Origin: an uncultured Eubacteriales bacterium
Lineage (GTDB): Bacteria; Bacillota; Clostridia; Oscillospirales; Acutalibacteraceae
DNA: 64,000 bases
Assembly (NCBI GenBank): GCA_934675165.1
Contig: CAKUPP010000002.1
Coordinates: forward strand, 3,718-67,717
Direction of reading: 5' to 3'
Positions within the stretch are counted from its first letter, which is position 1. Each line of letters opens with the position of its first letter. A model generated the notes under the pieces. That model worked only from the letters and a program-made list of their open reading frames with translations. It searched no databases and was not told where the DNA came from. The position numbers were made by a program, and so were the translations under genes. Shown here piece after piece: positions 46,560 through 57,254 of this stretch.

Positions 46560-47342
46560 CTAAGTTGAAAATAATATAAATTTTATTGTAGAAAGTGGAC
46601 TATCAGATTTTATAATATTTATTTTTTCTATTAAACAATTATTTATGAACCATTTAAAACTGGGAATCACTAAGCAAAATTTATACTTATTATTAAAAAT
46701 ATAATCTTGCCCAAATTCTTTACCATAAGTTTTTCTTCCAACAAGGTACACATTATTTAAATTTGCATATAAAGAATATGCTAGTATTTCTGCACTGCTA
46801 GCAGTATTCTCATCAACTAATATAAATATATGTTTAAAGTTATACATTTTTTTATTTGAGTAATATGTAACCATTTTATTTTTGTATCTAAGGGTAACTA
46901 TCTCTCTCTCTGGTAAAAATAAATCACATATATCTACGCATTGCTTAAGGTAGCCACCACCACATCCTCTTAAATCTAGTATAAGATTTTCTTTTTTTAC
47001 ATCATTTAAAATTTTAATTAAATCTGTATATAAACTTTTACTCCATAAGTTAAGCTTTATATATAAAGAGTTTTTAAAATAAATATCTGTAAAACACGAT
47101 TTTAAATCCATTTTCCTTTTGCGACAACGATAAAATTGCGTATACAGACTTCCTCTGGTATCAACAATAAAATTTTCCATATCTTCATAAGAAATTTTAT
47201 TTTTACTAAGCAAATTTTGTTTTTTATAAAAATATTTTTCAGACTCTTTAAAAAATATATCATTATTTTCATAATATTGTATACATTTTTCAACAATACT
47301 TCGAGAAAGAAACTTTTTTTCAAATAGCATATTATTCATCAA
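46560..47342 (-). CDS. S41 (C-terminal-processing/Tsp-like) serine peptidase homolog without a signal peptide. Last gene of the RiPP-like operon.
   Basis: LILDLRGCGGG, ILVDENTASSAEILAYSL (Ser nucleophile context) and GRKTYGKEFGQ (Lys). It overlaps the upstream gene by 11 nt. Confidence 0.65.
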   Translation of the reverse strand: MMNNMLFEKKFLSRSIVEKCIQYYENNDIFFKESEKYFYKKQNLLSKNKISYEDMENFIVDTRGSLYTQFYRCRKRKMDLKSCFTDIYFKNSLYIKLNLWSKSLYTDLIKILNDVKKENLILDLRGCGGGYLKQCVDICDLFLPEREIVTLRYKNKMVTYYSNKKMYNFKHIFILVDENTASSAEILAYSLYANLNNVYLVGRKTYGKEFGQDYIFNNKYKFCLVIPSFKWFINNCLIEKINIIKSDSPLSTIKFILFST

Positions 47343-48000
47343 TCACATTTCCGACGTTATCAAGTAGTTTTTTAGTGTTTATAAAAAGTATTTCTGAATT
47401 ATTTTTTCTATTAATTAACAAGCAAATACCAGTTATTACAATAGAAATTAAAACACAAATTAACAATGTTTTTTTATTAGCATCAAGAACATTTGGAAAG
47501 AAAAATACACAAGCCACAATAGCAAAACTAAACAATCCGAATGGCATTTGCAAACATTGTTTTACAATAGAATAATCAACAAAATATAAAGTATTCGATA
47601 AAACAAGTGAAAAAGCTAAAAATATATTTATCAAACCAAAAACAATCATATCCATATTTAGATTTATGCCAAATATCAATGAAAATAATATGAGAACTAT
47701 ATATGAATATATGTAACTACTTACTGTAATAATTACTGCATTGCATACCCAGTTTTTTTTAGGAGTAAATGGCGTAGCCAAAAGATATCCACTATAAATT
47801 AAATCTTCAGGGTTCCAATGAATAAACATACTCAAATATGTAACCACCGTAGAAAAATAAAAAAACATTTTTTCTTTTGGTATCTTCAAAAAATAAAACA
47901 AAATAAAACATACAAGTGGTAACAATATAAGGCCTAGTAATTTTCTACTGTTTTTAAGTTCTTTCCACCTTTTCCAAATTAACGCTTTAATAAAAATCAC
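47332..48000 (-). CDS. Polytopic membrane protein (about 6 TM). Putative ABC-2-type permease or immunity component.
   Basis: Hydrophobicity pattern. 4-nt overlap with the upstream gene and 11-nt overlap with the downstream gene. Confidence 0.55.
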   Translation of the reverse strand: MIFIKALIWKRWKELKNSRKLLGLILLPLVCFILFYFLKIPKEKMFFYFSTVVTYLSMFIHWNPEDLIYSGYLLATPFTPKKNWVCNAVIITVSSYIYSYIVLILFSLIFGINLNMDMIVFGLINIFLAFSLVLSNTLYFVDYSIVKQCLQMPFGLFSFAIVACVFFFPNVLDANKKTLLICVLISIVITGICLLINRKNNSEILFINTKKLLDNVGNVIDE

Positions 48001-48617
48001 TCCTTTATTACAATTTTTTCAAATGATGTACAATGAAAAAATTTTTTATAAACTATAGCATTTAAAAATACCAGACATAACATAACTATTGGCACACAAG
48101 AGCAACTACATTTATTTATGGTATCAAATACAAAAAATAATATTCCAAAACTTAAATTTACAATAAAATAAACGTGCACTTTTTTCATAAATAAAAACAT
48201 TGAATAAATATTTAATGAAAATATAAAAAACATTGCTAACGATATTACAAAAATCAACACATCACTAAGTTTTGCAAACTTTAAAGCAAAACTAAAAGTT
48301 AATACTATACATATCTTTATGTACGCAGCAAAAACATAGCTTTCAATTAAAGTTCTCGGAGAAAAAGGCAACGTACAAAGTATCTGATTATTTAAACCAA
48401 ACACAGTATCAAAATTTATCAGCACATCAAACACAATACTCGTAACAAAAACACACAACAATGTACCAATTAATGATATATCAATTCTTAATAGTACACA
48501 TACTACAATTACGTAACTAATACTTATTATTTTTCGATTTTTTATTTTTTTATTTTGAAACCAAAAAAATGTTAGCCCATTTTGTATTGTCGACTTTATT
48601 ACCGAATTGATTTTCAT
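47997..48617 (-). CDS. Polytopic membrane protein (about 6 TM). Putative ABC-2-type permease or immunity component.
   Basis: Hydrophobicity pattern, immediately downstream of the ABC ATPase. Confidence 0.55.
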   Translation of the reverse strand: MKINSVIKSTIQNGLTFFWFQNKKIKNRKIISISYVIVVCVLLRIDISLIGTLLCVFVTSIVFDVLINFDTVFGLNNQILCTLPFSPRTLIESYVFAAYIKICIVLTFSFALKFAKLSDVLIFVISLAMFFIFSLNIYSMFLFMKKVHVYFIVNLSFGILFFVFDTINKCSCSCVPIVMLCLVFLNAIVYKKFFHCTSFEKIVIKE

Positions 48618-48621
48618 AAGT

Positions 48622-49380
48622 CTACCCTTCTATTCCAAACACTTTTCTATATATAAACTCCAAGTCAATTTTATTGTCAGCATTTTTATCATTAGGACAA
48701 TATTTCTCTATTAAGGAATCTAAGTCAGATTCTTCTATTATTTGACCTTTATTTATAAAACCATATCTATCACACATTTTCTCCAACTCAGACAAATTGT
48801 GTGAATTTATAAATACAGTCACTCCACGCTCTTTAGCTACTTTAACATAATTTCTAACCATAAAAATTCCTTCAACATCTAATCCTACCGTTGGTTCATC
48901 CAAAATTAAAAGTTTAGGTTTATTAATAAAAGCTCTGGCAAGAGCTAATCTTTGCTTTTGCCCTTTAGAAAACATTATTATTTTTTCGTTCATTTTTTGC
49001 TTCAAATCAACTAAATCTAATACTGACATAATATCTGATCTTCTATCAGATGCAGTTGCCATGGGATAATAAATTCTATGAAAAAATTCAATATTTTCAT
49101 ACGCAGTTAAATCTTTGTATAACCCTAAATTATCTAAAACACACCCTATTTTATATTTTTTTTCAATAAACTTATTGTCATTTACACCAATTCCATCTAC
49201 TGTTATAATTCCTGAAGACAAAAAATAAATATTAAGAAGCAATCGAACAAAAGTACTTTTTCCTGCACCGTTAGGACCTATTAACCCATAAACTTCTCCG
49301 CTTTTTATATGTAAATTTATATTTTGTAAAATATTTTTTCCATTTATAGATTTACAAACATTTTTTGCGATTATTTCCAT
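48622..49380 (-). CDS. ABC transporter ATP-binding protein (ABC-2/bacitracin-type).
   Basis: Walker A GPNGAGKST, signature FSKGQKQRLALARA, Walker B LLILDEPT. It overlaps the upstream rSAM gene by 10 nt. Confidence 0.85.
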   Translation of the reverse strand: MEIIAKNVCKSINGKNILQNINLHIKSGEVYGLIGPNGAGKSTFVRLLLNIYFLSSGIITVDGIGVNDNKFIEKKYKIGCVLDNLGLYKDLTAYENIEFFHRIYYPMATASDRRSDIMSVLDLVDLKQKMNEKIIMFSKGQKQRLALARAFINKPKLLILDEPTVGLDVEGIFMVRNYVKVAKERGVTVFINSHNLSELEKMCDRYGFINKGQIIEESDLDSLIEKYCPNDKNADNKIDLEFIYRKVFGIEG

Positions 49381-50513
49381 AAAGACTCCTCCAATATATA
49401 GTTGCAGTTTTGCCGAGGATCATTAAAAATGCATCTGTCACAAGCATATCTAAATTCACACAACGCACAAACCATGTCATCATCTATTTTATTATTCCAA
49501 TAATTTTCCATAATACTTTTTATAACTGTAGACCACTTATCGAAAATGACATTTCCGACTTTTTTATTTTTGATAATATCGTAGTCAAAATCATTATTCA
49601 CACAATAATTACTAAATTTTGTATCACTAATACATGCACCTAAACACGGATATACATCCCCATTTTCCATTATAGCTATCTTTCCATTCAAACATTTATT
49701 GTGTTCTTTTCGTAAGAAAAAATTAAATATGTCCATATTTGGCATATTATTTTTATTAATTTTTGGCGCACGAGTAGAAGAAATTAGTACTGTCCACTCA
49801 GAAGGAATCGCTATGTTTTTCTTATTTTCTAAAGAGCAGTATACAACCAATGTAACGTTTTTGTATTCTTTATAATTTTCTACAATCTTACTAATATTGT
49901 CAGCATCAAAGAGCGATATCAAAATCGATAATTTTTTATTATATCCCTCAACTCGTTTCATTCCGTTAGTGCTTACTGTAAAGGTCATATTAAGGTATGA
50001 AATAAAATCACATAAAACCATTAAATCAGGATATAAAACACATTCCCCGCCAGTCAAAATAATATGTTTACATCCAAATTTTTTTAAATTACGTACGACC
50101 TCTTTCCATTTTTTCAAACTCATACACCTATCAGTGTTTTCACTTTTAAAACAAGTCGGACAAAATACTTTTCCGCAATTATAACATGAAAGATTACAAT
50201 CATTCGTTAGTTTTAGAATTGCTGAACTTATATATGGAACATCCTTAAAAAATCTTTTATTATTAAAAATATTAGTAAGTCTGTATTTATCAATAAAAAT
50301 AGGGTTATTACTTATAATTCCCCAGTTATTATCAGATAAAGATTCAAAAATTTCTTTTTGTTCTACAGACACAGTTTTATTCTTTTCGCATTCTTTCAAC
50401 AAATAAGCTAAATTATTATCAATCCAAAGAGATTTTTTGCTTAAAATATTTTGTAAAAGAGATTTATTTTTACCCACAACTAAATACACTTCTGGTAACA
50501 ATCTAAAATACAC
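49371..50513 (-). CDS. Radical SAM/SPASM peptide maturase with an N-terminal RRE (PqqD-like) region.
   Basis: CNLSCYNC (Cx3Cx2C). C-terminal SPASM Cys pattern C-x15-C ... CALCEFRYACDRC ... C. The N-terminal ~90 aa (YFRLLPEVYLVVGKNKSLLQNI...) resemble a leader-binding domain. The GTG start overlaps the upstream stop by 1 nt. Confidence 0.8.
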   Translation of the reverse strand: MYFRLLPEVYLVVGKNKSLLQNILSKKSLWIDNNLAYLLKECEKNKTVSVEQKEIFESLSDNNWGIISNNPIFIDKYRLTNIFNNKRFFKDVPYISSAILKLTNDCNLSCYNCGKVFCPTCFKSENTDRCMSLKKWKEVVRNLKKFGCKHIILTGGECVLYPDLMVLCDFISYLNMTFTVSTNGMKRVEGYNKKLSILISLFDADNISKIVENYKEYKNVTLVVYCSLENKKNIAIPSEWTVLISSTRAPKINKNNMPNMDIFNFFLRKEHNKCLNGKIAIMENGDVYPCLGACISDTKFSNYCVNNDFDYDIIKNKKVGNVIFDKWSTVIKSIMENYWNNKIDDDMVCALCEFRYACDRCIFNDPRQNCNYILEESLWK

Positions 50514-51916
50514 TATGCCATATCCCCCATTCTATTCAAACGAGTATAATAATCTGTTGTTATTTCTTCAAAAAGTTTTGGATTTTGTTCCAGCAATTCG
50601 GTATATTCTATTAACAGTTGTTTTATAAAATTTATTTGCCTATTGCATATTTTTTCATCATATTTAAACCCTTTTTCTAAACAAAAATCTTTGAAACACA
50701 ATGAACATAATCTCGATATTTTACATTTTTCGCAGTGATTATTCATAGTATCATTATATTCACTTAGCATTTTTGAAATAATCTTATAATTAAGGCCTGA
50801 AAATACGTTACCAATTTTTTTTTGATTATTTACTTTTTCACATACTATAAAATCTCCAGTTGACTCAACATATATTTTTTCTCCCGGAACACACGTTGAT
50901 GTATATGCCCGTATACTGGGTAATTCTTCTGCAACCATTCTGTGGTAAGCAAAGCTTCCATAAATATCACCAAAAAAATTATATATAAAAGAATCTTTTT
51001 TTATTTCATCATTTATTGATTTTTGAAAAAATTCATTTTTTACAATATTAAAATTATTAATAAAGTTTTGTTTATTATTTGCAGAAAATTGTTTGTAGTA
51101 TTTAGCACTCTCTGAAACGGCAGCAGCACGCAATATATTAATATCATATTCATCTGCAAATTCACTAAATTTTTTCATATCAGTTTTATAATCATAACAG
51201 GCAGACACAAACACCGCTTGTCCAGGATAATTATTTTTAAAATTATGGTAGTTATTGTACACTATATCAAATGTAGGTTTACCATTTATAAACAACCTAT
51301 TTCTATCATGATTTTCCTTATACCCATCTATACTAACCAAAACATGAAACTTATTTTCGTATAAAAATTTTTGAATGCTATCATTTAATAACACTCCATT
51401 GGTTGTTATATGCCACTTTACTTTATTTATGTATTCTGGGTATGTAATTTTAATATATTCAACAATTTTCTTTATCAGTTTAAAATTTAGCAAAGGCTCC
51501 CCACCATAAAAACTAATTACAGGTACTCGTTGAGGATTTCTATCAACCACTATTTTAAAATTTTCAAAATAATAATCTACTGCTTTTTTGGCAACATCTA
51601 AACTCATTGAGTTAATACCATGATTCCTCGTAAAATCATAATTTTCAGAATAAGTACAATATTTGCACCTTAAATTACATTTCGAAGTAACTTCTAAAAT
51701 TAACTGCTTAAAACCATTTGCATTATCAATTAAATATTTCTTTACATCACTTACTGTAACTTTATTTAATTTTTCACTTGCTTTAATAAATTTTTTAACA
51801 GCTCTGTACTTTTCAATATCAATTTTGTTTCTAACTTTAAAAAATATATGCCCAGTAACGTTATCATATATGTAATTATTACTTAATTTAGTTTTAAATT
51901 CTATACACTTATCCAA
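50513..51916 (-). CDS. Radical SAM/SPASM peptide maturase (anSME-like, 467 aa).
   Basis: SKCNLRCKYC (Cx3Cx2C), and GGEPLL. SPASM pattern C-x16-C ... CEKCKISRLCSLC ... C. The TTG start follows GGAGGGGGG. Confidence 0.85.
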   Translation of the reverse strand: MDKCIEFKTKLSNNYIYDNVTGHIFFKVRNKIDIEKYRAVKKFIKASEKLNKVTVSDVKKYLIDNANGFKQLILEVTSKCNLRCKYCTYSENYDFTRNHGINSMSLDVAKKAVDYYFENFKIVVDRNPQRVPVISFYGGEPLLNFKLIKKIVEYIKITYPEYINKVKWHITTNGVLLNDSIQKFLYENKFHVLVSIDGYKENHDRNRLFINGKPTFDIVYNNYHNFKNNYPGQAVFVSACYDYKTDMKKFSEFADEYDINILRAAAVSESAKYYKQFSANNKQNFINNFNIVKNEFFQKSINDEIKKDSFIYNFFGDIYGSFAYHRMVAEELPSIRAYTSTCVPGEKIYVESTGDFIVCEKVNNQKKIGNVFSGLNYKIISKMLSEYNDTMNNHCEKCKISRLCSLCFKDFCLEKGFKYDEKICNRQINFIKQLLIEYTELLEQNPKLFEEITTDYYTRLNRMGDMA

Positions 51917-51952: not shown

Positions 51953-52195
51953 TCAACCAGCAGACATTGCAATACTTACAGCCGCTGCAGCTGCACCGGA
52001 CGCTATACTACCAAAAACTGTAGCTGTTGCACCTGAAATTGCGCCAGCAGAAATAGGCCCTAACACTACACATCCCACACACCACGCACATGCAGCGCAA
52101 CCCACACATGCAGCACAGGCTACGCATCCTTGACATCCAGCAATTTCTACTTTTTCTCCAATTTCAATTTCTTCCGCAAAATGTTCTATATTCAT
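51953..52195 (-). CDS. RiPP precursor candidate (80 aa) with an acidic leader and an uncharged core carrying a (CxxC) ladder of eight Cys.
   Basis: Manual reverse translation gives MNIEHFAEEIEIGEKVEIAG-CQGCVACAACVGCAACAWCVGCVVLGPISAGAISGATATVFGSIASGAAAAAVSIAMSAG. GGAGGA lies 8 nt upstream of the ATG at 52195. It is located 36 nt upstream of the first rSAM gene. Confidence 0.75.
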   Translation of the reverse strand: MNIEHFAEEIEIGEKVEIAGCQGCVACAACVGCAACAWCVGCVVLGPISAGAISGATATVFGSIASGAAAAAVSIAMSAG

Positions 52196-52228
52196 AAAAT
52201 ATTCCTCCATGAAACATTATCACATAAA

Positions 52229-52235: not shown

Positions 52236-52324
52236 AAATACAATTTCCTAAATTATTACAAAAATAACAAATCATATTAATACGTTTAGGCTTTATTATA
52301 AATATTTGACATTATATTAAAAAA

Positions 52325-52331
52325 TTCGACA
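52325..52331 (-). promoter_or_regulatory. Perfect Spo0A-box heptamer TGTCGAA (distal). It lies in the spacer of a candidate promoter TTCAAA, 16 nt, TATAAT (-10 is the reverse complement of 52311-52316).
   Basis: The plus strand reads ttcgaca within the repeated 11-mer. It has the same geometry relative to a -10 element as the proximal box. Confidence 0.4.
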
Positions 52332-52511
52332 ATTTGAATTTTACAATTACATATCTAAAAAATCAATATTATTTAACAAAATCTACTTTTTTAATATATT
52401 TTTAATGTAATTTAATTTATCTTTATTAAATATAAAAAATAGAACATTAATTTTACATATTATTAAAAAATTAATTTTAAATTTTTTATATTAAAACAAT
52501 TAACTTAAACA

Positions 52512-52577: not shown

Positions 52578-54086
52578 TTACATCATAGAAATTTCAACAC
52601 ATTTAAGTTCAGTTCTACCTTCATTAAAATAAAATCTTACAAAATATTTATCCTTTATATATTTGTCACTCGGAACACTATTCACATTATTTATGTTAAT
52701 AGCAAGATTAGAAAAAACTGTTCGATAGTAGTTTGGACAATTATAATTTATTGAAGTAAATGGCTCGCACATTACGCTTCGTCTTTCAACAGCACTGCTC
52801 TTCGCTGTAAGTCCCATAAATGCTTCTTTTGTTCCTAAAATTATTTTTTCACATACATATTCACCTTTATCAGGATCTACTTTAAACACTACCGAAGCAT
52901 CTAAATTCAAATAAGTTAAAATCAAATGATTATCTTTTTCCGTTCTGTAAGACTCTTTCCCAAATTCTGTTGTAACTTTTTCAGTACCATTTCCCAAATA
53001 AGCAATGTAATCAATACTGTCTCCACGAAAATTACCACTAAATTGTTGTGATCCTAAAGAATCATATGACTTTCCTGTTCCTTGACGTTTCCCTTTTGAA
53101 AAAGCACCATCATAAACTATCAATGAACTATTAACATCATACAATTGTCCGGAACCATCATAAAGTCCATTTTTAAATTCTCCTGAATAAATTATTGTAC
53201 CTGTATCTACATTGTAAAGATTTCCTGTACCTTCGTAATTTCCATTTGAAAATTCCCCAGAATATAACAAACTCTTATTCGAATACAATTTGCCACTACC
53301 AGAATAAACACCATCTTTGAAAGCGCCCTCATACTTAATTGTACTTCCATCTTTTTCATACTCAACTCCATTGCCTGCACGAACGTCATTAGCGTGATCA
53401 CCGTAGTATGTTTTAAGTTGAGTATCCGGATCATATTCTATGCCTATTCCAGCCTTTACACCTGCAGTAAAATTACCAACATAAATTACTCTTCCTATAG
53501 AGCTGTAAAGTTTTCCTTCCCCTTCATAAAGATTATTAGAAAAATTACCATCATATATCAGTGTACCATCTTTATCATAAAGCTTCCCTCCACCGGAATA
53601 TTTTCCGTTTTGAAAATTACCGCTATAAATTAAATGTCCGTCACTATCATATTGAGTCCCGCTACCACTTGCCTTACCTTTTGAAAGAGTACCCTCATAA
53701 ACTTTTATGCCTTGAGTGTCATAAATGCGAGCTCTACCGTCAAATGTAGTAATTTTTGAAGAATCCACTCTTATATTTGCCGCCCAAAGTTTGCCATCTG
53801 CCCATGGGTAAACCCAATAAACGGCAGCATAACCAATAAATAAAAACACAAGAGAAGTAATTATCGTCATTTTTTTTGAAAAATATATTCCAAAAAATTT
53901 CCAATAGTCCTCTTTAGACTCTGGATTTTTTGTGACTGTTTGTAAAAATTTTTGAATTTTTTGCTGTACTCGTTGAGCTATTTGAGTACCCATATTTTGG
54001 ATCCTTATCATGAAGGTCGTAAGTACAGCAAATTGAGATTGAAGTGTCGCCGTTACTCTTCCAAAAATATCACTTAAAGCATTCAT
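52578..54086 (-). CDS. Membrane-anchored MORN-repeat protein.
   Basis: One TM segment at about residues 73-93, then about 9 tandem MORN units (YxGxFxNGxxxGxGxxY, for example YSGNFQNGKYSGGGKLY and YDGNFSNNLYEGEGKLY). Confidence 0.75.
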   Translation of the reverse strand: MNALSDIFGRVTATLQSQFAVLTTFMIRIQNMGTQIAQRVQQKIQKFLQTVTKNPESKEDYWKFFGIYFSKKMTIITSLVFLFIGYAAVYWVYPWADGKLWAANIRVDSSKITTFDGRARIYDTQGIKVYEGTLSKGKASGSGTQYDSDGHLIYSGNFQNGKYSGGGKLYDKDGTLIYDGNFSNNLYEGEGKLYSSIGRVIYVGNFTAGVKAGIGIEYDPDTQLKTYYGDHANDVRAGNGVEYEKDGSTIKYEGAFKDGVYSGSGKLYSNKSLLYSGEFSNGNYEGTGNLYNVDTGTIIYSGEFKNGLYDGSGQLYDVNSSLIVYDGAFSKGKRQGTGKSYDSLGSQQFSGNFRGDSIDYIAYLGNGTEKVTTEFGKESYRTEKDNHLILTYLNLDASVVFKVDPDKGEYVCEKIILGTKEAFMGLTAKSSAVERRSVMCEPFTSINYNCPNYYRTVFSNLAININNVNSVPSDKYIKDKYFVRFYFNEGRTELKCVEISMM

Positions 54087-54112
54087 ACATTTTTACCTCT
54101 TATTTTTATAGT

Positions 54113-57037
54113 TTAAATTATATACCCTGTAAAACCTTCAATAGATCCACCAGAATTTTTTCTTCGTTGAATATTTTTATCACATTTCGCGAGGTAATGG
54201 ATAGATATTTTATCGCCTTCATTTACTCTTATAACTTCTGTAAAAACTTTTCTAGCTTCTTCGAAGTCACCGGTAAGATAAAGTTTTAAACCTTGTTCAA
54301 AATTTTCATCAGTAATTTTATATAGGTCTGATTTATATTTATTTGATCCATCAATCATCTCATATATATCTCTGCCACCTTCCCCTGTGACACTTCTAAC
54401 TTTTCCTATATACCTGTAAGTATAACTAGGAACTTCTTTAATTTTATCTATTATATCTTTAGTTGCAACCTGGTTAATACCCAATTTTTCAAGATAAGAA
54501 TCAATTTTGAACATCTGCATTATCTCATCCGATACTACTAAAATTCCACGACGGTCTGTGTTACCCGACACACCAACAAGAACAGATCCATGCCCAAGCG
54601 TTACGTTCATATGTGCTTTAACCGCATCGGGAATAGCAATTTCTTTAAGTTGAATAGCAGCGTTAAAAGCGTTTTGAGCATTTTTGGGAAATAAAAACAC
54701 AGCGCCCAAACCATCAAATGATTGCACTACTCCATCATTGGATTCAACAATTTTAAACATTTCATCATAAGATTTATTTAAAGCATCAAATATTTCATTC
54801 TCATCTTTGAATTCATAAGATCCTTTACACGAAAGATTAAAGGTAACATAAATTATATTCATTTCAACTACTTTGTTGTCATGAAGTTTAACTTGTGTAA
54901 CTTTTTCTTTTCCCATAAGATTAAATATTTTAGACGGAACATATCGTACATATTCTCTATTAAGTTTAACTAAATTATTGGTATATCTGTCAATCTTATC
55001 TGACATTATATTAAATGCCTGCGCTATATCTGCAAACTCGTCTTTAGAACTTATTTTTATTCTAGAATCCCAATTTCCATGACTTATTTCAACAATCCCT
55101 TTTTCTATTTTTTTCAAAGGTCTGAGGCACCATCTAATTACAAATGCAATATACCCTATCATTACTACAGCAAAAACCAAAATAACTGCCAAAGAATGTT
55201 TTAAAATACTATAAAATTCATTTGTACTGTGTATTTCTTCGTCAAGGAAATTACCTACAAAGCCAACAACAACACCACTCGAATCTTTTATTGGAACAAA
55301 CGCCGCAGAAATATTTCCATAAACATCACGAAAATCTGCTTCTATACAGTCACTGGATGAACTTTTATTAGAAAATTTTTCCCATATTCCATAAAGTTTT
55401 TCAACCTCGTCATTTTCGAAAATAGAATCAATCAAAATATACTGTGAGGGAACCATATCGGGATCAGTATACTTAAGACGATTATACGAATCAGAGGAAA
55501 CATCATACTTTGTAGAAATAGTAGCATACAATTTGTTATATTTTTCTATATAGGTAACTATATAATCGCTTCTATCACCTATTTTTAAAGATAAATCTCG
55601 GTACCCGTTTTCTACGCTTTCTTTTATGCTCATATAATCTTTTGTCATATAATCACGCACATGATTAATTTTGGTAAATTCTGTACCATCTATTTTGTCA
55701 GCAACCGTTTTTGCACCTCGCTGCTGTTCACTTTTAAGAATTGATGTGTAACTTATCACAGAATCTCTGGTATTGATATACACTAAACATCCCATACCCA
55801 GTACTAACACCGGAAGTAACATTGAAATTATTCTTACCCTCAGAGGTATTCTTGTAAATTCTAGTGATGATAAATATTTTAAACCATAAATAACGATAAA
55901 AAATATAATTACAAATGCCAACATTATTAAAAGACCAAATGGGAAAAACTTTCCTCGTATATCAGAAATCAATACTGAATTTACGCCAAATCCAACATAA
56001 TAAGGTTTATCAAACGCTTTTGATGGTGCATAAAAATTTCCATCTGATATAACCTTTAATTTTCTTAAATCACTGATTTTAATATTTTGTTTTTCCAACA
56101 CAACACTATCCAAATTGTAAATCTGTTTTGAAACAATACTTTGTGTATTAAGTTGATAAAAAGCTCCACTTACACTATCTGTAAAATAAATATTATCTGA
56201 TGTATCCACATACATACCAGAAATTAAAAATCCAGAAGTTGAAACCGTATTGGAGTAATTCACGAATGCACCAGTATTGTTCATAGCCCAAAGCTCACCG
56301 TTTGGAGTTGAATAAAAAACTCGTCCAGAAGAAAGTACGCAAGCGTCAAGCAACCATCCAGATGATGGAGCTGTGTAACCATTTGGTGGAGAAACCACAA
56401 AAGTTTTAGCTTTTTTTGGACTCTCATCTTGAAGAGGATTAACTGTAATTATGTCATAGACATCATTTTTACCCGCAATTATCGACATATTTTGACCAAT
56501 AAGTTGAATCTTTTTGATATACGGTTCTGTTGGGGCAGTTGTATCACTTGAAAAATCAACTGACGTAACATCTTTTACAAAATTTCCATACGTATCATAC
56601 ATCAAAACAGTTTCATTTTTTATAGGATAGTGAGACTTGTCCGGCACAACTGCAGTAAGTGTTTTGGTACGTTTAACAACATAAATATTACCCTTGTTAT
56701 CAGACTCAAGATTACTGTAAGAATATTCACTTTCATTAGTGCTTTTATCAAGATCTATTTTAAAATTTTGAGCACCATTTGAACCAATTTTTGTTATCTT
56801 ATATTGAGATGAATCTTCATCTACTCCCAAAATATAAACATTGCCCATTGGATCCATATCAGAAGCCAAAAATGTTCCCAAATTTGGTTTGTTGATAAAA
56901 TACTGAAGTAAAAATGCAGTAATAACAATAACCGCACCTACAGTATAATATCTAATTAATTTGTTTTCAAAAAGTGATCTTATCAATCCAGCACCTTTCT
57001 GAGATTTTGATTTTTCAACTTGTAAATTTTTTTCCAT
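54113..57037 (-). CDS. Transmembrane sensor protein. It has a large extracytoplasmic repeat domain, a second sensor-like domain, HAMP, a degenerate class III cyclase-homology domain and a TPR-like tail.
   Basis: Two TM segments. HAMP region LRPLKKIEKGIVEISHGNWDSRI..DEFADIAQAFNIM. The cyclase-like fold (IIYVTFNLS...SFDGLGAVFLF...GHGSVLVGVSG) lacks the canonical metal Asp and Asn/Arg residues. The likely start is the ATG at 57037. Confidence 0.65.
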   Translation of the reverse strand: MEKNLQVEKSKSQKGAGLIRSLFENKLIRYYTVGAVIVITAFLLQYFINKPNLGTFLASDMDPMGNVYILGVDEDSSQYKITKIGSNGAQNFKIDLDKSTNESEYSYSNLESDNKGNIYVVKRTKTLTAVVPDKSHYPIKNETVLMYDTYGNFVKDVTSVDFSSDTTAPTEPYIKKIQLIGQNMSIIAGKNDVYDIITVNPLQDESPKKAKTFVVSPPNGYTAPSSGWLLDACVLSSGRVFYSTPNGELWAMNNTGAFVNYSNTVSTSGFLISGMYVDTSDNIYFTDSVSGAFYQLNTQSIVSKQIYNLDSVVLEKQNIKISDLRKLKVISDGNFYAPSKAFDKPYYVGFGVNSVLISDIRGKFFPFGLLIMLAFVIIFFIVIYGLKYLSSLEFTRIPLRVRIISMLLPVLVLGMGCLVYINTRDSVISYTSILKSEQQRGAKTVADKIDGTEFTKINHVRDYMTKDYMSIKESVENGYRDLSLKIGDRSDYIVTYIEKYNKLYATISTKYDVSSDSYNRLKYTDPDMVPSQYILIDSIFENDEVEKLYGIWEKFSNKSSSSDCIEADFRDVYGNISAAFVPIKDSSGVVVGFVGNFLDEEIHSTNEFYSILKHSLAVILVFAVVMIGYIAFVIRWCLRPLKKIEKGIVEISHGNWDSRIKISSKDEFADIAQAFNIMSDKIDRYTNNLVKLNREYVRYVPSKIFNLMGKEKVTQVKLHDNKVVEMNIIYVTFNLSCKGSYEFKDENEIFDALNKSYDEMFKIVESNDGVVQSFDGLGAVFLFPKNAQNAFNAAIQLKEIAIPDAVKAHMNVTLGHGSVLVGVSGNTDRRGILVVSDEIMQMFKIDSYLEKLGINQVATKDIIDKIKEVPSYTYRYIGKVRSVTGEGGRDIYEMIDGSNKYKSDLYKITDENFEQGLKLYLTGDFEEARKVFTEVIRVNEGDKISIHYLAKCDKNIQRRKNSGGSIEGFTGYII

Positions 57038-57254
57038 AATGTCACCCACCAATGTAAAAATTTTATGTCCATGATAATCAAGTATAATCGAGTGTAAAAA
57101 ATAAAAAAATTATAAAATATAAATTTTAGATAATTTTTTTTAATAAATGGATTTACTATTTCCATCTGTCGCTGTATAATATAGTATATTATGATAGAAT
57201 AATGTAGTCAAGTGCTAAAAAAATGTCTTTATTCTAAAAAATTTAATCAAAAGG

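What the first reader, a model, noticed from the sequence alone, without database searches (positions are those of the whole stretch)
51953..52195. Precursor core is a doubled thurincin-H-like CxxC ladder with a matching Ser/Thr register
The sequence gives the leader MNIEHFAEEIEIGEKVEIAG, with six Glu. The 60-aa core has no charged residue: CQGCVACAACVGCAACAWCVGC-VVLGP-ISAGAISGATATVFGSIASGAAAAAVSIAMSAG. Cys occupy core positions 1,4,7,10,13,16,19,22, an exact period of 3. From memory, thurincin H (DWTCWSCLVCAACSVELLNLVTAATGASTAS) has four Cys at period 3. They are bridged to residues 19/22/25/28 in a nested hairpin with five residues between the innermost pair. Applying the same nested register here (i+j=50, a five-residue VVLGP turn) predicts partners I28,G31,S34,T37,V40,S43,S46,A49. 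The Ser/Thr of the second half fall exactly on that 3-residue register (34,37,43,46). Eight thioether bridges would be twice the number in any sactipeptide I know of. The remaining AAAAAVSIAMSAG tail and the GxxxG-like spacing suggest a membrane-active product.
Basis: partly seen in the sequence, partly recalled or inferred. Interest (0 to 1): 0.9.

Follow-up and report, generated by a model that had tools for sequence, protein, structure and literature searches.

The report
Eight-cysteine ladder sactipeptide precursor gene
A small gene in a human-gut bacterium encodes the precursor of a thuricin CD-type cross-linked antimicrobial peptide with eight evenly spaced cysteines, about twice as many as any characterised relative; it belongs to a rare, uncharacterised family.

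Summary
The ORF is real. It lies on the minus strand (51953-52195), has a GGAGG ribosome-binding site, and is under strong purifying selection (pN/pS 0.07 in the Cys ladder). It heads an operon with the same gene set as the thuricin CD cluster: a TrnC-like and a TrnD-like radical SAM/SPASM enzyme, an ABC transporter and an S41 peptidase (TrnE-like). Members share one plan: 7-10 Cys (5 in one divergent subgroup), mostly at period 3, then a Pro turn, then a largely uncharged tail always long enough to mirror the ladder. This core is fused to several leader types, including Nif11-like leaders. A nested hairpin with up to eight thioethers is the best model, by homology and geometry, but it is unproven. 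Eight Cys is mid-range for the family; nine is commonest. Verdict: a new variant of a known kind, worth experimental follow-up.

The parts
51953..52195 (-). Precursor peptide gene (80 aa): acidic Cys-free leader (1-20), eight-Cys period-3 ladder (21-42), VVLGP turn (43-47), uncharged Ala/Gly/Ser/Thr/Val tail (48-80)
   Evidence: Translation. Identical protein on 43 contigs from human-gut assemblies. pN/pS 0.24 against L007. 54 relatives share the same plan.
52204..52208 (-). Shine-Dalgarno GGAGG, 8 nt upstream of the ATG of MNIEH
   Evidence: Read directly from the sequence. The upstream in-frame ATG at 52210 overlaps this site, so the MNIEH start is preferred.
52311..52338 (-). Sigma-70-like promoter candidate (TTCAAA-16-TATAAT) upstream of the precursor
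   Evidence: Consensus scan, 10 of 12 matches. Consensus match only; this AT-rich region has many such hits.
50513..51916 (-). rSAM1: TrnC/ThzC-like radical SAM/SPASM maturase with an N-terminal RRE (467 aa); predicted to carry out the cross-linking chemistry
   Evidence: 32% identity to TrnC, E 2e-57. 35% to the huazacin first rSAM, E 5e-74. AF2 pLDDT 91 with top fold match CteB 5WGG. CxxxCxxC and seven SPASM Cys are invariant in 39 homologues. Catalytic-site proximity residues T-Y-T-S-E-K against L-Y-T-S-E-K in the huazacin enzyme.
49371..50513 (-). rSAM2: TrnD/ThzD-like second radical SAM/SPASM protein (380 aa); probable partner and leader-binding subunit
   Evidence: E 2e-14 to TrnD and E 3e-11 to the huazacin second rSAM. 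Always directly downstream of rSAM1 in related loci. CxxxCxxC, seven SPASM Cys and an extra C118/C121 pair are conserved. The family profile is nearest YydG and SkfB.
48622..49380 (-). ABC transporter ATP-binding subunit (TrnF-like; lantibiotic-protection type)
   Evidence: PF00005; best NCBIfam match is the lantibiotic protection ABC ATPase, 178 bits and below its cut-off. 34% identity to the thuricin CD cluster ATPase, E 2e-28.
47997..48617 (-). Polytopic membrane protein (206 aa), putative ABC permease/immunity subunit
   Evidence: Hydrophobic sequence. No family hit. Same position in related cassettes.
47332..48000 (-). Polytopic membrane protein (222 aa), putative second permease/immunity subunit
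   Evidence: Hydrophobic sequence. Homologues in L008 and L009 cassettes.
46560..47342 (-). S41 family serine peptidase (TrnE-like, 260 aa, no PDZ domain or signal peptide evident); putative processing protease
   Evidence: PF03572, E 3e-25. TASSAE and TYGK motifs read in the sequence. 27% identity, E 2e-7, to the S41 peptidase of the thuricin CD cluster. Conserved in L008, L009, L011, L012, L014, L017, L168 and L170.

Best explanation
The ORF encodes the precursor of a thuricin CD/huazacin-type (two-rSAM) sactipeptide with an unusually long donor ladder. Shown here: the gene is real and under selection; it heads an operon of TrnC-like rSAM1, TrnD-like rSAM2, an ABC ATPase plus two membrane proteins, and a TrnE-like S41 peptidase; and it belongs to a conserved precursor family built as ladder, Pro turn, tail. 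Inferred from the characterised homologues: rSAM1 and rSAM2 act together, as TrnC and TrnD do. The RRE and rSAM2 hold the acidic leader, and rSAM1 cleaves SAM. The 5'-deoxyadenosyl radical abstracts the C-alpha hydrogen of a residue in the C-terminal arm, and a ladder Cys sulfur is joined to that carbon (a sactionine). Repeating this up to eight times zips the N-terminal ladder to the C-terminal arm across the VVLGP turn. The result is a nested hairpin with acceptors spaced about 3 apart, somewhere within core 28-52. The leader is then removed near ...VEIA|G|C, probably by the S41 peptidase. The very hydrophobic, uncharged product is exported, and the producer protected, by the ABC system. It most likely acts as a narrow-spectrum membrane-targeting bacteriocin in the gut.
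For: Gene reality: RBS; pN/pS 0.07 in the ladder and 0.09 in core 23-49, against 1.27 in the last 11 residues; identical protein in many human-gut assemblies. Context: full gene-set match to the thuricin CD cluster L174 and to the huazacin enzyme pair L172. The cassette recurs in L008, L009, L011, L014, L017, L168 and L170. Enzyme: confident AF2 model with RRE, rSAM and SPASM regions, nearest CteB. Five of six catalytic-site proximity residues are identical to the huazacin enzyme, and to TrnC as read off the pairwise alignment, against two of six for the ranthisynthase CteB (method from PMC10288494). Both rSAMs keep all cluster-binding Cys. Hairpin: in thurincin H, thuricin Z and subtilosin-type peptides the acceptor spacing mirrors the donor spacing. 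In 54 family members a Pro lies within 5 residues of the last Cys in 49. The tail is never shorter than ladder plus turn, and Cys number correlates with tail length (Spearman 0.67). The selection boundary at about core 49 matches the end of a mirrored eight-rung arm. Odd Cys counts (7 and 9 are the commonest) argue against all-disulfide pairing. Mechanism of the enzyme pair: PMC12093266.
Against: There are no chemical data: linkage type, number and topology are all inferred. The precursor matches no curated family, including the huazacin precursor model. Cys spacing is 3, not the 4 seen in the homologous characterised systems. The Ser/Thr register is statistically weak, and no period-3 signal appears in tail conservation or Ser/Thr frequency in four subfamilies. 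Close relatives that gained or lost rungs kept the same tail length (P0183 vs L168; P0150 vs L008/P0188), so ladder and arm are not tightly coupled. The Spearman correlation is not corrected for phylogeny. AF2 of the precursor is uninformative (pLDDT 51). Eight consecutive nested rings at 3-residue spacing may be sterically demanding, so some Cys may stay free. The role of the S41 peptidase is unproven, and TrnE is described as of unknown function (PMC8172795).
Confidence: 0.6

Rival explanations
1. Same enzyme family and thioether chemistry, but not a complete eight-rung nested hairpin. Only some Cys are bridged, with the rest free, disulfide-bonded or otherwise modified, or the rings are partly local or unnested, as in streptosactin, ruminococcin C (double hairpin) or SKF (one thioether plus one disulfide).
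For: Varied topologies exist among sactipeptides (PMC12093266 introduction; PMC8172795). Rung gains and losses occur without any tail length change. There is no period-3 imprint in the tails. CC doublets replace a rung in L168, L170 and P0152. The closest characterised enzymes install only 3-4 bridges.
Against: All type-1 relatives made by TrnC/ThzC-type enzymes are fully nested, with every Cys used. Seven ladder Cys are invariant across 14 diverse precursors, and the ladder has the lowest pN/pS (0.07). The tail is always long enough for full mirroring.
Confidence: 0.25
2. A ranthipeptide-like product: the Cys are linked to beta or gamma carbons (for example Thr C-gamma, as made by CteB) rather than to alpha carbons.
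For: The best solved-structure match is CteB by both sequence and fold. NCBIfam similarities include the PapB, QhpD and SCIFF maturases, all below cut-off. The tail contains Ser and Thr.
Against: The six catalytic-site proximity positions match the sactisynthases of huazacin and thuricin CD at five of six, and CteB at two of six. The core has no Asp, Glu or Asn, the usual ranthionine acceptors. Full-length similarity to TrnC and ThzC (E 2e-57 and 5e-74) is far higher than to CteB (E 9e-28).
Confidence: 0.08
3. The CxxC ladder is not mainly a cross-link donor. Instead it is a metal- or Fe-S-binding or redox peptide, or rSAM2 (whose family profile is nearest the epimerase YydG) introduces D-residues or another modification, so the product is chemically different from a sactipeptide.
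For: CxxC is a classic metal and redox motif. The rSAM2 profile's best PDB hit is the epimerase YydG (E 6e-12). rSAM2 has an extra invariant Cys pair. TrnD's radical chemistry is dispensable for cross-linking, which leaves room for another role.
Against: Odd and variable Cys numbers. The gene-set match to thuricin CD includes an immunity-type ABC transporter. ThzD itself forms sactionines (PMC8172795). SkfB, a sactisynthase, scores almost the same as YydG. An uncharged 60-aa core is atypical for a soluble metal-binding peptide.
Confidence: 0.05
4. The ORF is not expressed, or the cluster is decaying, so no product exists.
For: One assembly (L002) carries a 13-bp frameshifting insertion in rSAM1. 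No expression data are available.
Against: Strong, patterned purifying selection. A good RBS. An intact operon in the window and in five of the six same-species loci inspected. All catalytic Cys are retained.
Confidence: 0.02

Closest known systems
Thuricin CD system of Bacillus thuringiensis (TrnA/TrnB precursors; TrnC, TrnD, TrnE, TrnF, TrnG)
   Same: The gene set is the same: a TrnC-like rSAM (32% identity, E 2e-57), an adjacent TrnD-like rSAM (E 2e-14), an S41 peptidase (E 2e-7) and an ABC ATPase (E 2e-28). Both have an acidic, Cys-free leader ending in small residues (...EEIGG against ...VEIAG). Both cores are hydrophobic, with Cys donors in the N-terminal half.
   Different: Here there is one precursor rather than two. 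It has eight Cys at CX2C spacing, against three at CX3C. The core is 60 aa rather than 30 and has no charged residue. There are two permease-like proteins. The host is an AT-rich gut anaerobe, not Bacillus.
Huazacin / thuricin Z (ThzA; ThzC, ThzD)
   Same: This is the closest characterised enzyme pair: rSAM1 at 35% identity over the full length (E 5e-74) and rSAM2 at E 3e-11. Five of six catalytic-site proximity residues are identical. It is a nested hairpin in which the acceptor spacing mirrors the donor spacing.
   Different: Huazacin has four Cys at period 4, with 9 residues enclosed by the innermost bridge. The window peptide does not match the HuaA_fam_RiPP model, whereas the huazacin precursor does. 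The huazacin cluster has no S41 peptidase.
Thurincin H (ThnA, ThnB)
   Same: It is the only characterised sactipeptide with CX2C donor spacing.
   Different: It has four bridges in a 31-aa core and a single rSAM (ThnB) with a different protease. I could not obtain the ThnB sequence, so homology to it was not tested. There is no evidence that the ladder here arose by duplicating a four-Cys unit.
CcpM / CLI_3235 Cys-rich peptide system (e.g. SacP23 of Paenibacillus polymyxa)
   Same: It gives the best NCBIfam hit for rSAM1 (TIGR04068, E 9e-67) and has a Cys-rich core.
   Different: The score of 226 bits is far below the 500-bit cut-off. The accessory proteins TIGR04066 and TIGR04069 are absent here, and the precursor does not match.
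SCIFF / CteB (thermocellin) ranthipeptide system
   Same: It is the closest solved structure for rSAM1: an RRE-rSAM-SPASM architecture with TM 0.65-0.69.
   Different: About 21% identity. The TIGR03974 score of 120 is below the 425 cut-off. The catalytic-site proximity residues differ at 4 of 6 positions. CteB makes a single Cys-Thr C-gamma link.

Membership tests
Sactipeptides (class) | Cys sulfur to alpha-carbon (sactionine) thioether in the mature peptide | not testable with these tools
   This needs MS, NMR or chemical degradation. It is predicted here only from enzyme homology.
Sactipeptides (class) | Adjacent radical SAM maturase with CxxxCxxC, a SPASM/twitch auxiliary-cluster domain and an RRE | tested here: met
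   Invariant C80/C84/C87 plus seven SPASM Cys. The AF2 model shows an N-terminal three-strand-plus-helices domain. The top fold match is CteB.
Sactipeptides (class) | Catalytic-site proximity profile of hairpin-forming sactisynthases (six positions defined in PMC10288494) | tested here: met
   Window T-Y-T-S-E-K, huazacin enzyme L-Y-T-S-E-K, TrnC I-Y-T-S-E-K (read off the pairwise alignment), CteB F-F-T-S-H-Q. The paper's own scoring matrix was not available.
Thuricin CD / huazacin-type two-rSAM sactipeptide clusters | TrnC/ThzC homologue | tested here: met
   E 2e-57 to TrnC and E 5e-74 to the huazacin rSAM.
Thuricin CD / huazacin-type two-rSAM sactipeptide clusters | Second, divergent rSAM (TrnD/ThzD homologue) encoded immediately downstream | tested here: met
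   E 2e-14 to TrnD and E 3e-11 to the huazacin second rSAM. The adjacency is conserved across loci.
Thuricin CD / huazacin-type two-rSAM sactipeptide clusters | S41 peptidase (TrnE) and ABC transporter in the cluster | tested here: met
   The S41 peptidase is annotated in the thuricin CD cluster and is homologous at E 2e-7. The ABC ATPase matches at E 2e-28. The huazacin cluster lacks an S41 peptidase.
Thuricin CD / huazacin-type two-rSAM sactipeptide clusters | Precursor with CX3C donor spacing (3-4 Cys) / match to the HuaA_fam_RiPP model | tested here: not met
   Spacing is CX2C with eight Cys. There is no NCBIfam hit even at E<=1, whereas the huazacin precursor scores 64.7 bits.
Thuricin CD / huazacin-type two-rSAM sactipeptide clusters | The two rSAMs form a complex, with only the TrnC-type chemistry essential | not testable with these tools
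   Known for TrnC/TrnD (PMC12093266). It would need pull-downs or a multimer prediction here.
Thurincin H family | Four Cys at CX2C spacing bridged to mirrored acceptors; single maturase ThnB | tested here: inconclusive
   The spacing matches.
CcpM / CLI_3235 system | rSAM scoring at or above the TIGR04068 cut-off (500 bits), with TIGR04066 and TIGR04069 partners | tested here: not met
   226 bits. Neither partner family appears among the cluster proteins.
SCIFF, RumMC and GG_samocin maturase families | Score at or above the curated cut-off of TIGR03974 (425), NF035951 (720) or TIGR04148 (300) | tested here: not met
   Scores of 120, 177 and 193 bits respectively.

The most novel reading that the evidence does not exclude
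The window peptide and its relatives are 'zipper' sactipeptides. Every one of 7-10 consecutive Cys is joined to the opposite arm, giving a rigid two-stranded thioether ladder with two to two-and-a-half times more sactionines than any known sactipeptide. This core would be an old, portable module that evolution has attached to at least four leader types: short acidic, Nif11-like, a protein-like domain of about 240 aa, and others. A further twist that the data do not exclude is that the S41 'C-terminal processing' peptidase trims the fast-evolving C-terminal surplus as a follower peptide.
Probability: 0.4. Interest if true: 0.75.

Novelty: new variant of a known kind. Interest (0 to 1): 0.6.

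Why it matters
Characterised sactipeptides carry one to four sactionine bridges. A product with eight nested bridges, or nine to ten in relatives, would set a record for cross-link density in this class. It would also test how far one TrnC/TrnD-type enzyme pair can act processively, and would give an exceptionally rigid, protease-resistant scaffold. The homologous peptides thuricin CD and thuricin Z are narrow-spectrum, membrane-targeting antibiotics; thuricin CD is active against C. difficile. This gene occurs in many human-gut metagenome assemblies, so the product could matter for competition in the gut. The family also shows the same core fused to very different leaders, which is useful for studying leader recognition. 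It remains a prediction from homology within a known RiPP class, not a new kind of system.

Tried and rejected
1. AlphaFold2 of the precursor with a 14-sequence alignment gave pLDDT 51 and no usable hairpin or register.
2. I tested tail conservation and Ser/Thr frequency for a period-3 signal in four subfamilies; all were negative.
3. I looked for internal duplication of a four-Cys unit and found only a weak 27-nt period.
4. Tail shuffling showed the Ser/Thr register to be weak.
5. The ladder core matches no Pfam or NCBIfam model.
6. CcpM/CLI_3235 (SacP23) was considered and rejected on score and missing accessory genes.
7. A linear azole peptide or heterocycloanthracin reading was rejected: the hit is only E 0.13 and the cluster has no YcaO cyclodehydratase.
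8. Literature searches for sactipeptides with 5-10 bridges, for CXXC sactipeptides and for Nif11/rSAM Cys-rich cores found no description of this family. The supplements of the 2023 rSAM compendium, which might list it, are not held.
9. The organism was not identified.
10. The promoter and terminator scan gave only consensus-level hits, and Rfam found nothing in the window.

Full report
**Observation.**
The reported ORF exists on the minus strand of 51953-52195. The plus strand gives nonsense. Cys occupy core positions 1, 4... 22. A GGAGG sits 8 nt upstream of the MNIEH start (52204-52208). A longer in-frame ATG overlaps that site and is unlikely to be the start.

The gene is not a chance ORF.
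- The identical protein is encoded on 43 contigs from human-gut metagenome assemblies.
- Against its one close homologue (P0002 / L007, 84% identity) 28 of 45 differing codons are synonymous.
- pN/pS is 0.24 overall: 0.41 in the leader, 0.07 in the ladder, 0.09 in core 23-49, and 1.27 in the last 11 residues.

The Ser/Thr claim is overstated.
- Ser/Thr occupy core 29, 34, 37, 39, 43, 46, 54 and 58, so only four of the eight lie on the proposed register.
- Shuffling the tail gives p=0.044 for that exact register, and 0.09-0.19 once the phase is free.
- 'Doubled' is descriptive only. Ladder DNA self-identity at a four-rung shift equals the one-rung baseline, and TRF reports only a weak 27-nt period.

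**Genomic context.**
All genes below lie on the minus strand, directly downstream of the precursor:

| Coordinates | Product |
|---|---|
| 50513-51916 | 467-aa radical SAM/SPASM protein (rSAM1) |
| 49371-50513 | 380-aa second radical SAM protein (rSAM2) |
| 48622-49380 | ABC ATPase |
| 47997-48617 | polytopic membrane protein |
| 47332-48000 | polytopic membrane protein |
| 46560-47342 | S41 peptidase |

- No terminator separates the precursor from rSAM1.
- rSAM1 reaches no NCBIfam cut-off. Its best matches are all peptide thioether maturases: CcpM 226/500 bits, GG_samocin 193/300, RumMC 177/720, then the PapB, QhpD and SCIFF maturases.

**Relatives and the decisive comparisons.**
- rSAM1 has more than 1,300 homologues at E<1e-20.
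- A tblastn search of plasmids found two experimentally characterised clusters.
- L172 (B. thuringiensis pBT62B) carries three 'huazacin family RiPP peptide' genes, two adjacent rSAMs and ABC genes.
- L174 (B. paranthracis plasmid) is the thuricin CD cluster. It holds an ABC ATPase, an ABC-2 permease, the Trn-beta and Trn-alpha precursors, TrnC, TrnD and an S41 family peptidase.

| Window protein | Characterised homologue | Identity | E-value |
|---|---|---|---|
| rSAM1 | huazacin first rSAM | 35%, full length | 5e-74 |
| rSAM1 | TrnC | 32% | 2e-57 |
| rSAM2 | huazacin second rSAM | 23%, full length | 3e-11 |
| rSAM2 | TrnD | 27% | 2e-14 |
| S41 peptidase | S41 peptidase of the thuricin CD cluster | 27% | 2e-7 |
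| ABC ATPase | ATPase of the thuricin CD cluster | 34% | 2e-28 |

The window operon therefore has the same gene set as the thuricin CD cluster. The rSAM1-rSAM2 adjacency is conserved even in distant and archaeal loci.

**Enzyme features.**
- The AF2 model of rSAM1 is confident (pLDDT 91.4). [quoted passage not shown]
- Its best fold match is CteB, with TM 0.65-0.69.
- CxxxCxxC and seven SPASM Cys are invariant in 39 homologues.
- The six 'catalytic-site proximity' positions were defined on CteB in PMC10288494. At these positions the window enzyme reads T-Y-T-S-E-K, the huazacin enzyme L-Y-T-S-E-K, TrnC I-Y-T-S-E-K, and the ranthisynthase CteB F-F-T-S-H-Q. This favours alpha-carbon (sactionine) chemistry.
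- rSAM2 also keeps CxxxCxxC, seven SPASM Cys and an extra invariant pair, C118/C121, across 13 family members.
- The rSAM2 family profile is nearest YydG (E 6e-12) and SkfB (E 3e-11), both of which abstract C-alpha hydrogens.
[quoted passage not shown] TrnC's radical chemistry is essential, and TrnD mainly binds the leader (PMC12093266).
- ThzC and ThzD can each form sactionines (PMC8172795).

**The precursor family.**
- Small ORFs next to rSAM1 relatives, a profile search of 5.8 billion proteins and an exhaustive HMMER search of 1.84 billion representatives together gave 54 usable precursors with the same plan.
- The exhaustive search found only 38 representative clusters at E<=1e-3, so the family is rare.
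- Ladders have 7 (12 members), 8 (9), 9 (30) or 10 (3) Cys, almost all at period 3. A more divergent 5-Cys subgroup (L014, P0161 and relatives) was not included in that table.
- A Pro lies within five residues of the last Cys in 49 of 54 members.
- The tails are rich in Ala, Gly, Ser, Thr and Val, and are never shorter than ladder span plus five residues (surplus 1-24).
- Cys number correlates with tail length (Spearman 0.67, not corrected for phylogeny).
- The same core is attached to short acidic leaders, to Nif11-like leaders of about 85 aa, to N-terminal domains of about 240 aa, and to others.
- More distant paired-rSAM loci flank period-4 precursors that resemble thuricin CD and huazacin.
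- No Pfam or NCBIfam model recognises the ladder core. The huazacin precursor does hit its own model, which serves as a positive control.
- I found no paper describing this family, or any sactipeptide with more than four sactionines. The supplements of the large rSAM compendium could not be checked.

**Topology.**
In the characterised nested sactipeptides, acceptor spacing mirrors donor spacing:
- thurincin H: C4-S28, C7-T25, C10-T22, C13-N19;
- thuricin Z: C4-H38, C8-Y34, C12-T30, C16-D26.

A mirrored period-3 arm is therefore the natural model here. The sharp change in constraint at about core 49 fits the end of such an arm.

The register itself is not fixed.
- The number of residues enclosed by the innermost bridge ranges from 5 to 9 in known relatives.
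- No period-3 signal appears in tail conservation or Ser/Thr frequency in four subfamilies.
- Close relatives that differ by one or two rungs keep identical tail lengths: P0183 against L168, and P0150 against L008/P0188.
- AF2 of the precursor is uninformative.
- By analogy with thuricin CD, whose leader is cut between the two Gly of ...EEIGG (PMC3132745), the leader here may be cut ...VEIA|GC, which would add one Gly to the core.

**Verdict.**
The sequence observation is confirmed, apart from the overstated Ser/Thr register. The sactipeptide interpretation is well supported by gene-for-gene homology to thuricin CD and huazacin. The eight-bridge nested topology is the best model, but it rests on inference.

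This is a new variant of a known kind: a long-ladder, period-3 branch of the TrnC/TrnD-type sactipeptides, undescribed in the literature I could search, present in a human-gut bacterium and in scattered other lineages. One family member lies on a plasmid-like contig.

Confidence by step:
- about 0.85 that the product is thioether cross-linked by the rSAM pair;
- about 0.7 that the links are to alpha carbons;
- about 0.4-0.5 that all eight Cys are bridged in a fully nested hairpin.

Noticed in passing
L170 / L171, 972-11324: A 9-Cys member of the same cassette lies on a plasmid-like contig, next to Rep3 replication protein, resolvase and IS (rve) genes. This suggests the cassette is mobile.
   Followed up: partly
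L002, 10279-11695 (same species as the window): In one human-gut assembly a 13-bp insertion at nt 515 of rSAM1 splits it into 182 + 275 aa. The downstream neighbourhood there is IleRS instead of UppP/FtsK. This could be real decay or an assembly error.
   Followed up: partly
P0154-P0170, P0179, P0194 (Nif11 type); P0180-P0196 (about 300 aa); L013 7131-7415 and 7505-8431: The same ladder-turn-tail core is fused to Nif11-like leaders and to N-terminal domains of about 240 aa. L013 carries one short-leader and one long-leader precursor side by side.
   Followed up: partly
window 49371-50513 (rSAM2), residues C118 and C121: An extra Cys pair just after the CxxxCxxC motif is invariant in 13 rSAM2 homologues, including the huazacin second rSAM. 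It may ligate an additional cluster.
   Followed up: no
window 51953-51985 (last 11 codons of the precursor) and 46560-47342 (S41 peptidase): The C-terminal 11 residues evolve with pN/pS 1.27, while the rest of the core is tightly constrained. Together with an S41 'C-terminal processing' peptidase in the operon, this raises the untested idea that the tail is trimmed.
   Followed up: no
window 52578-57052, minus strand: A 502-aa MORN-repeat protein and a 979-aa HAMP-domain membrane protein lie directly upstream of the precursor. They are conserved there within the species but absent from other family loci. Any regulatory link is unknown.
   Followed up: no
L172, 4294-4890 (B. thuringiensis pBT62B): The PLSDB/RGI layer labels the three 47-aa huazacin precursor genes as 'LUT-6 beta-lactamase, identity 100%'. 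This looks like a spurious resistance annotation.
   Followed up: no
window 1-64000: No Rfam family reaches its gathering score anywhere in the 64-kb window. The window is 31.9% GC, the cluster 26.6% and the precursor gene 46.9%.
   Followed up: no
P0191 (548 aa): A large protein with dozens of CxxC repeats (CINCINCTDC...) is hit in six stretches by the ladder profile. It appears to be a different kind of Cys-repeat protein.
   Followed up: no
L170, 5420-5581: A 53-aa ORF with a signal-peptide-like N-terminus and a Gly-rich C-terminus lies just upstream of the 9-Cys precursor. Its relation to the cassette is unknown.
   Followed up: no
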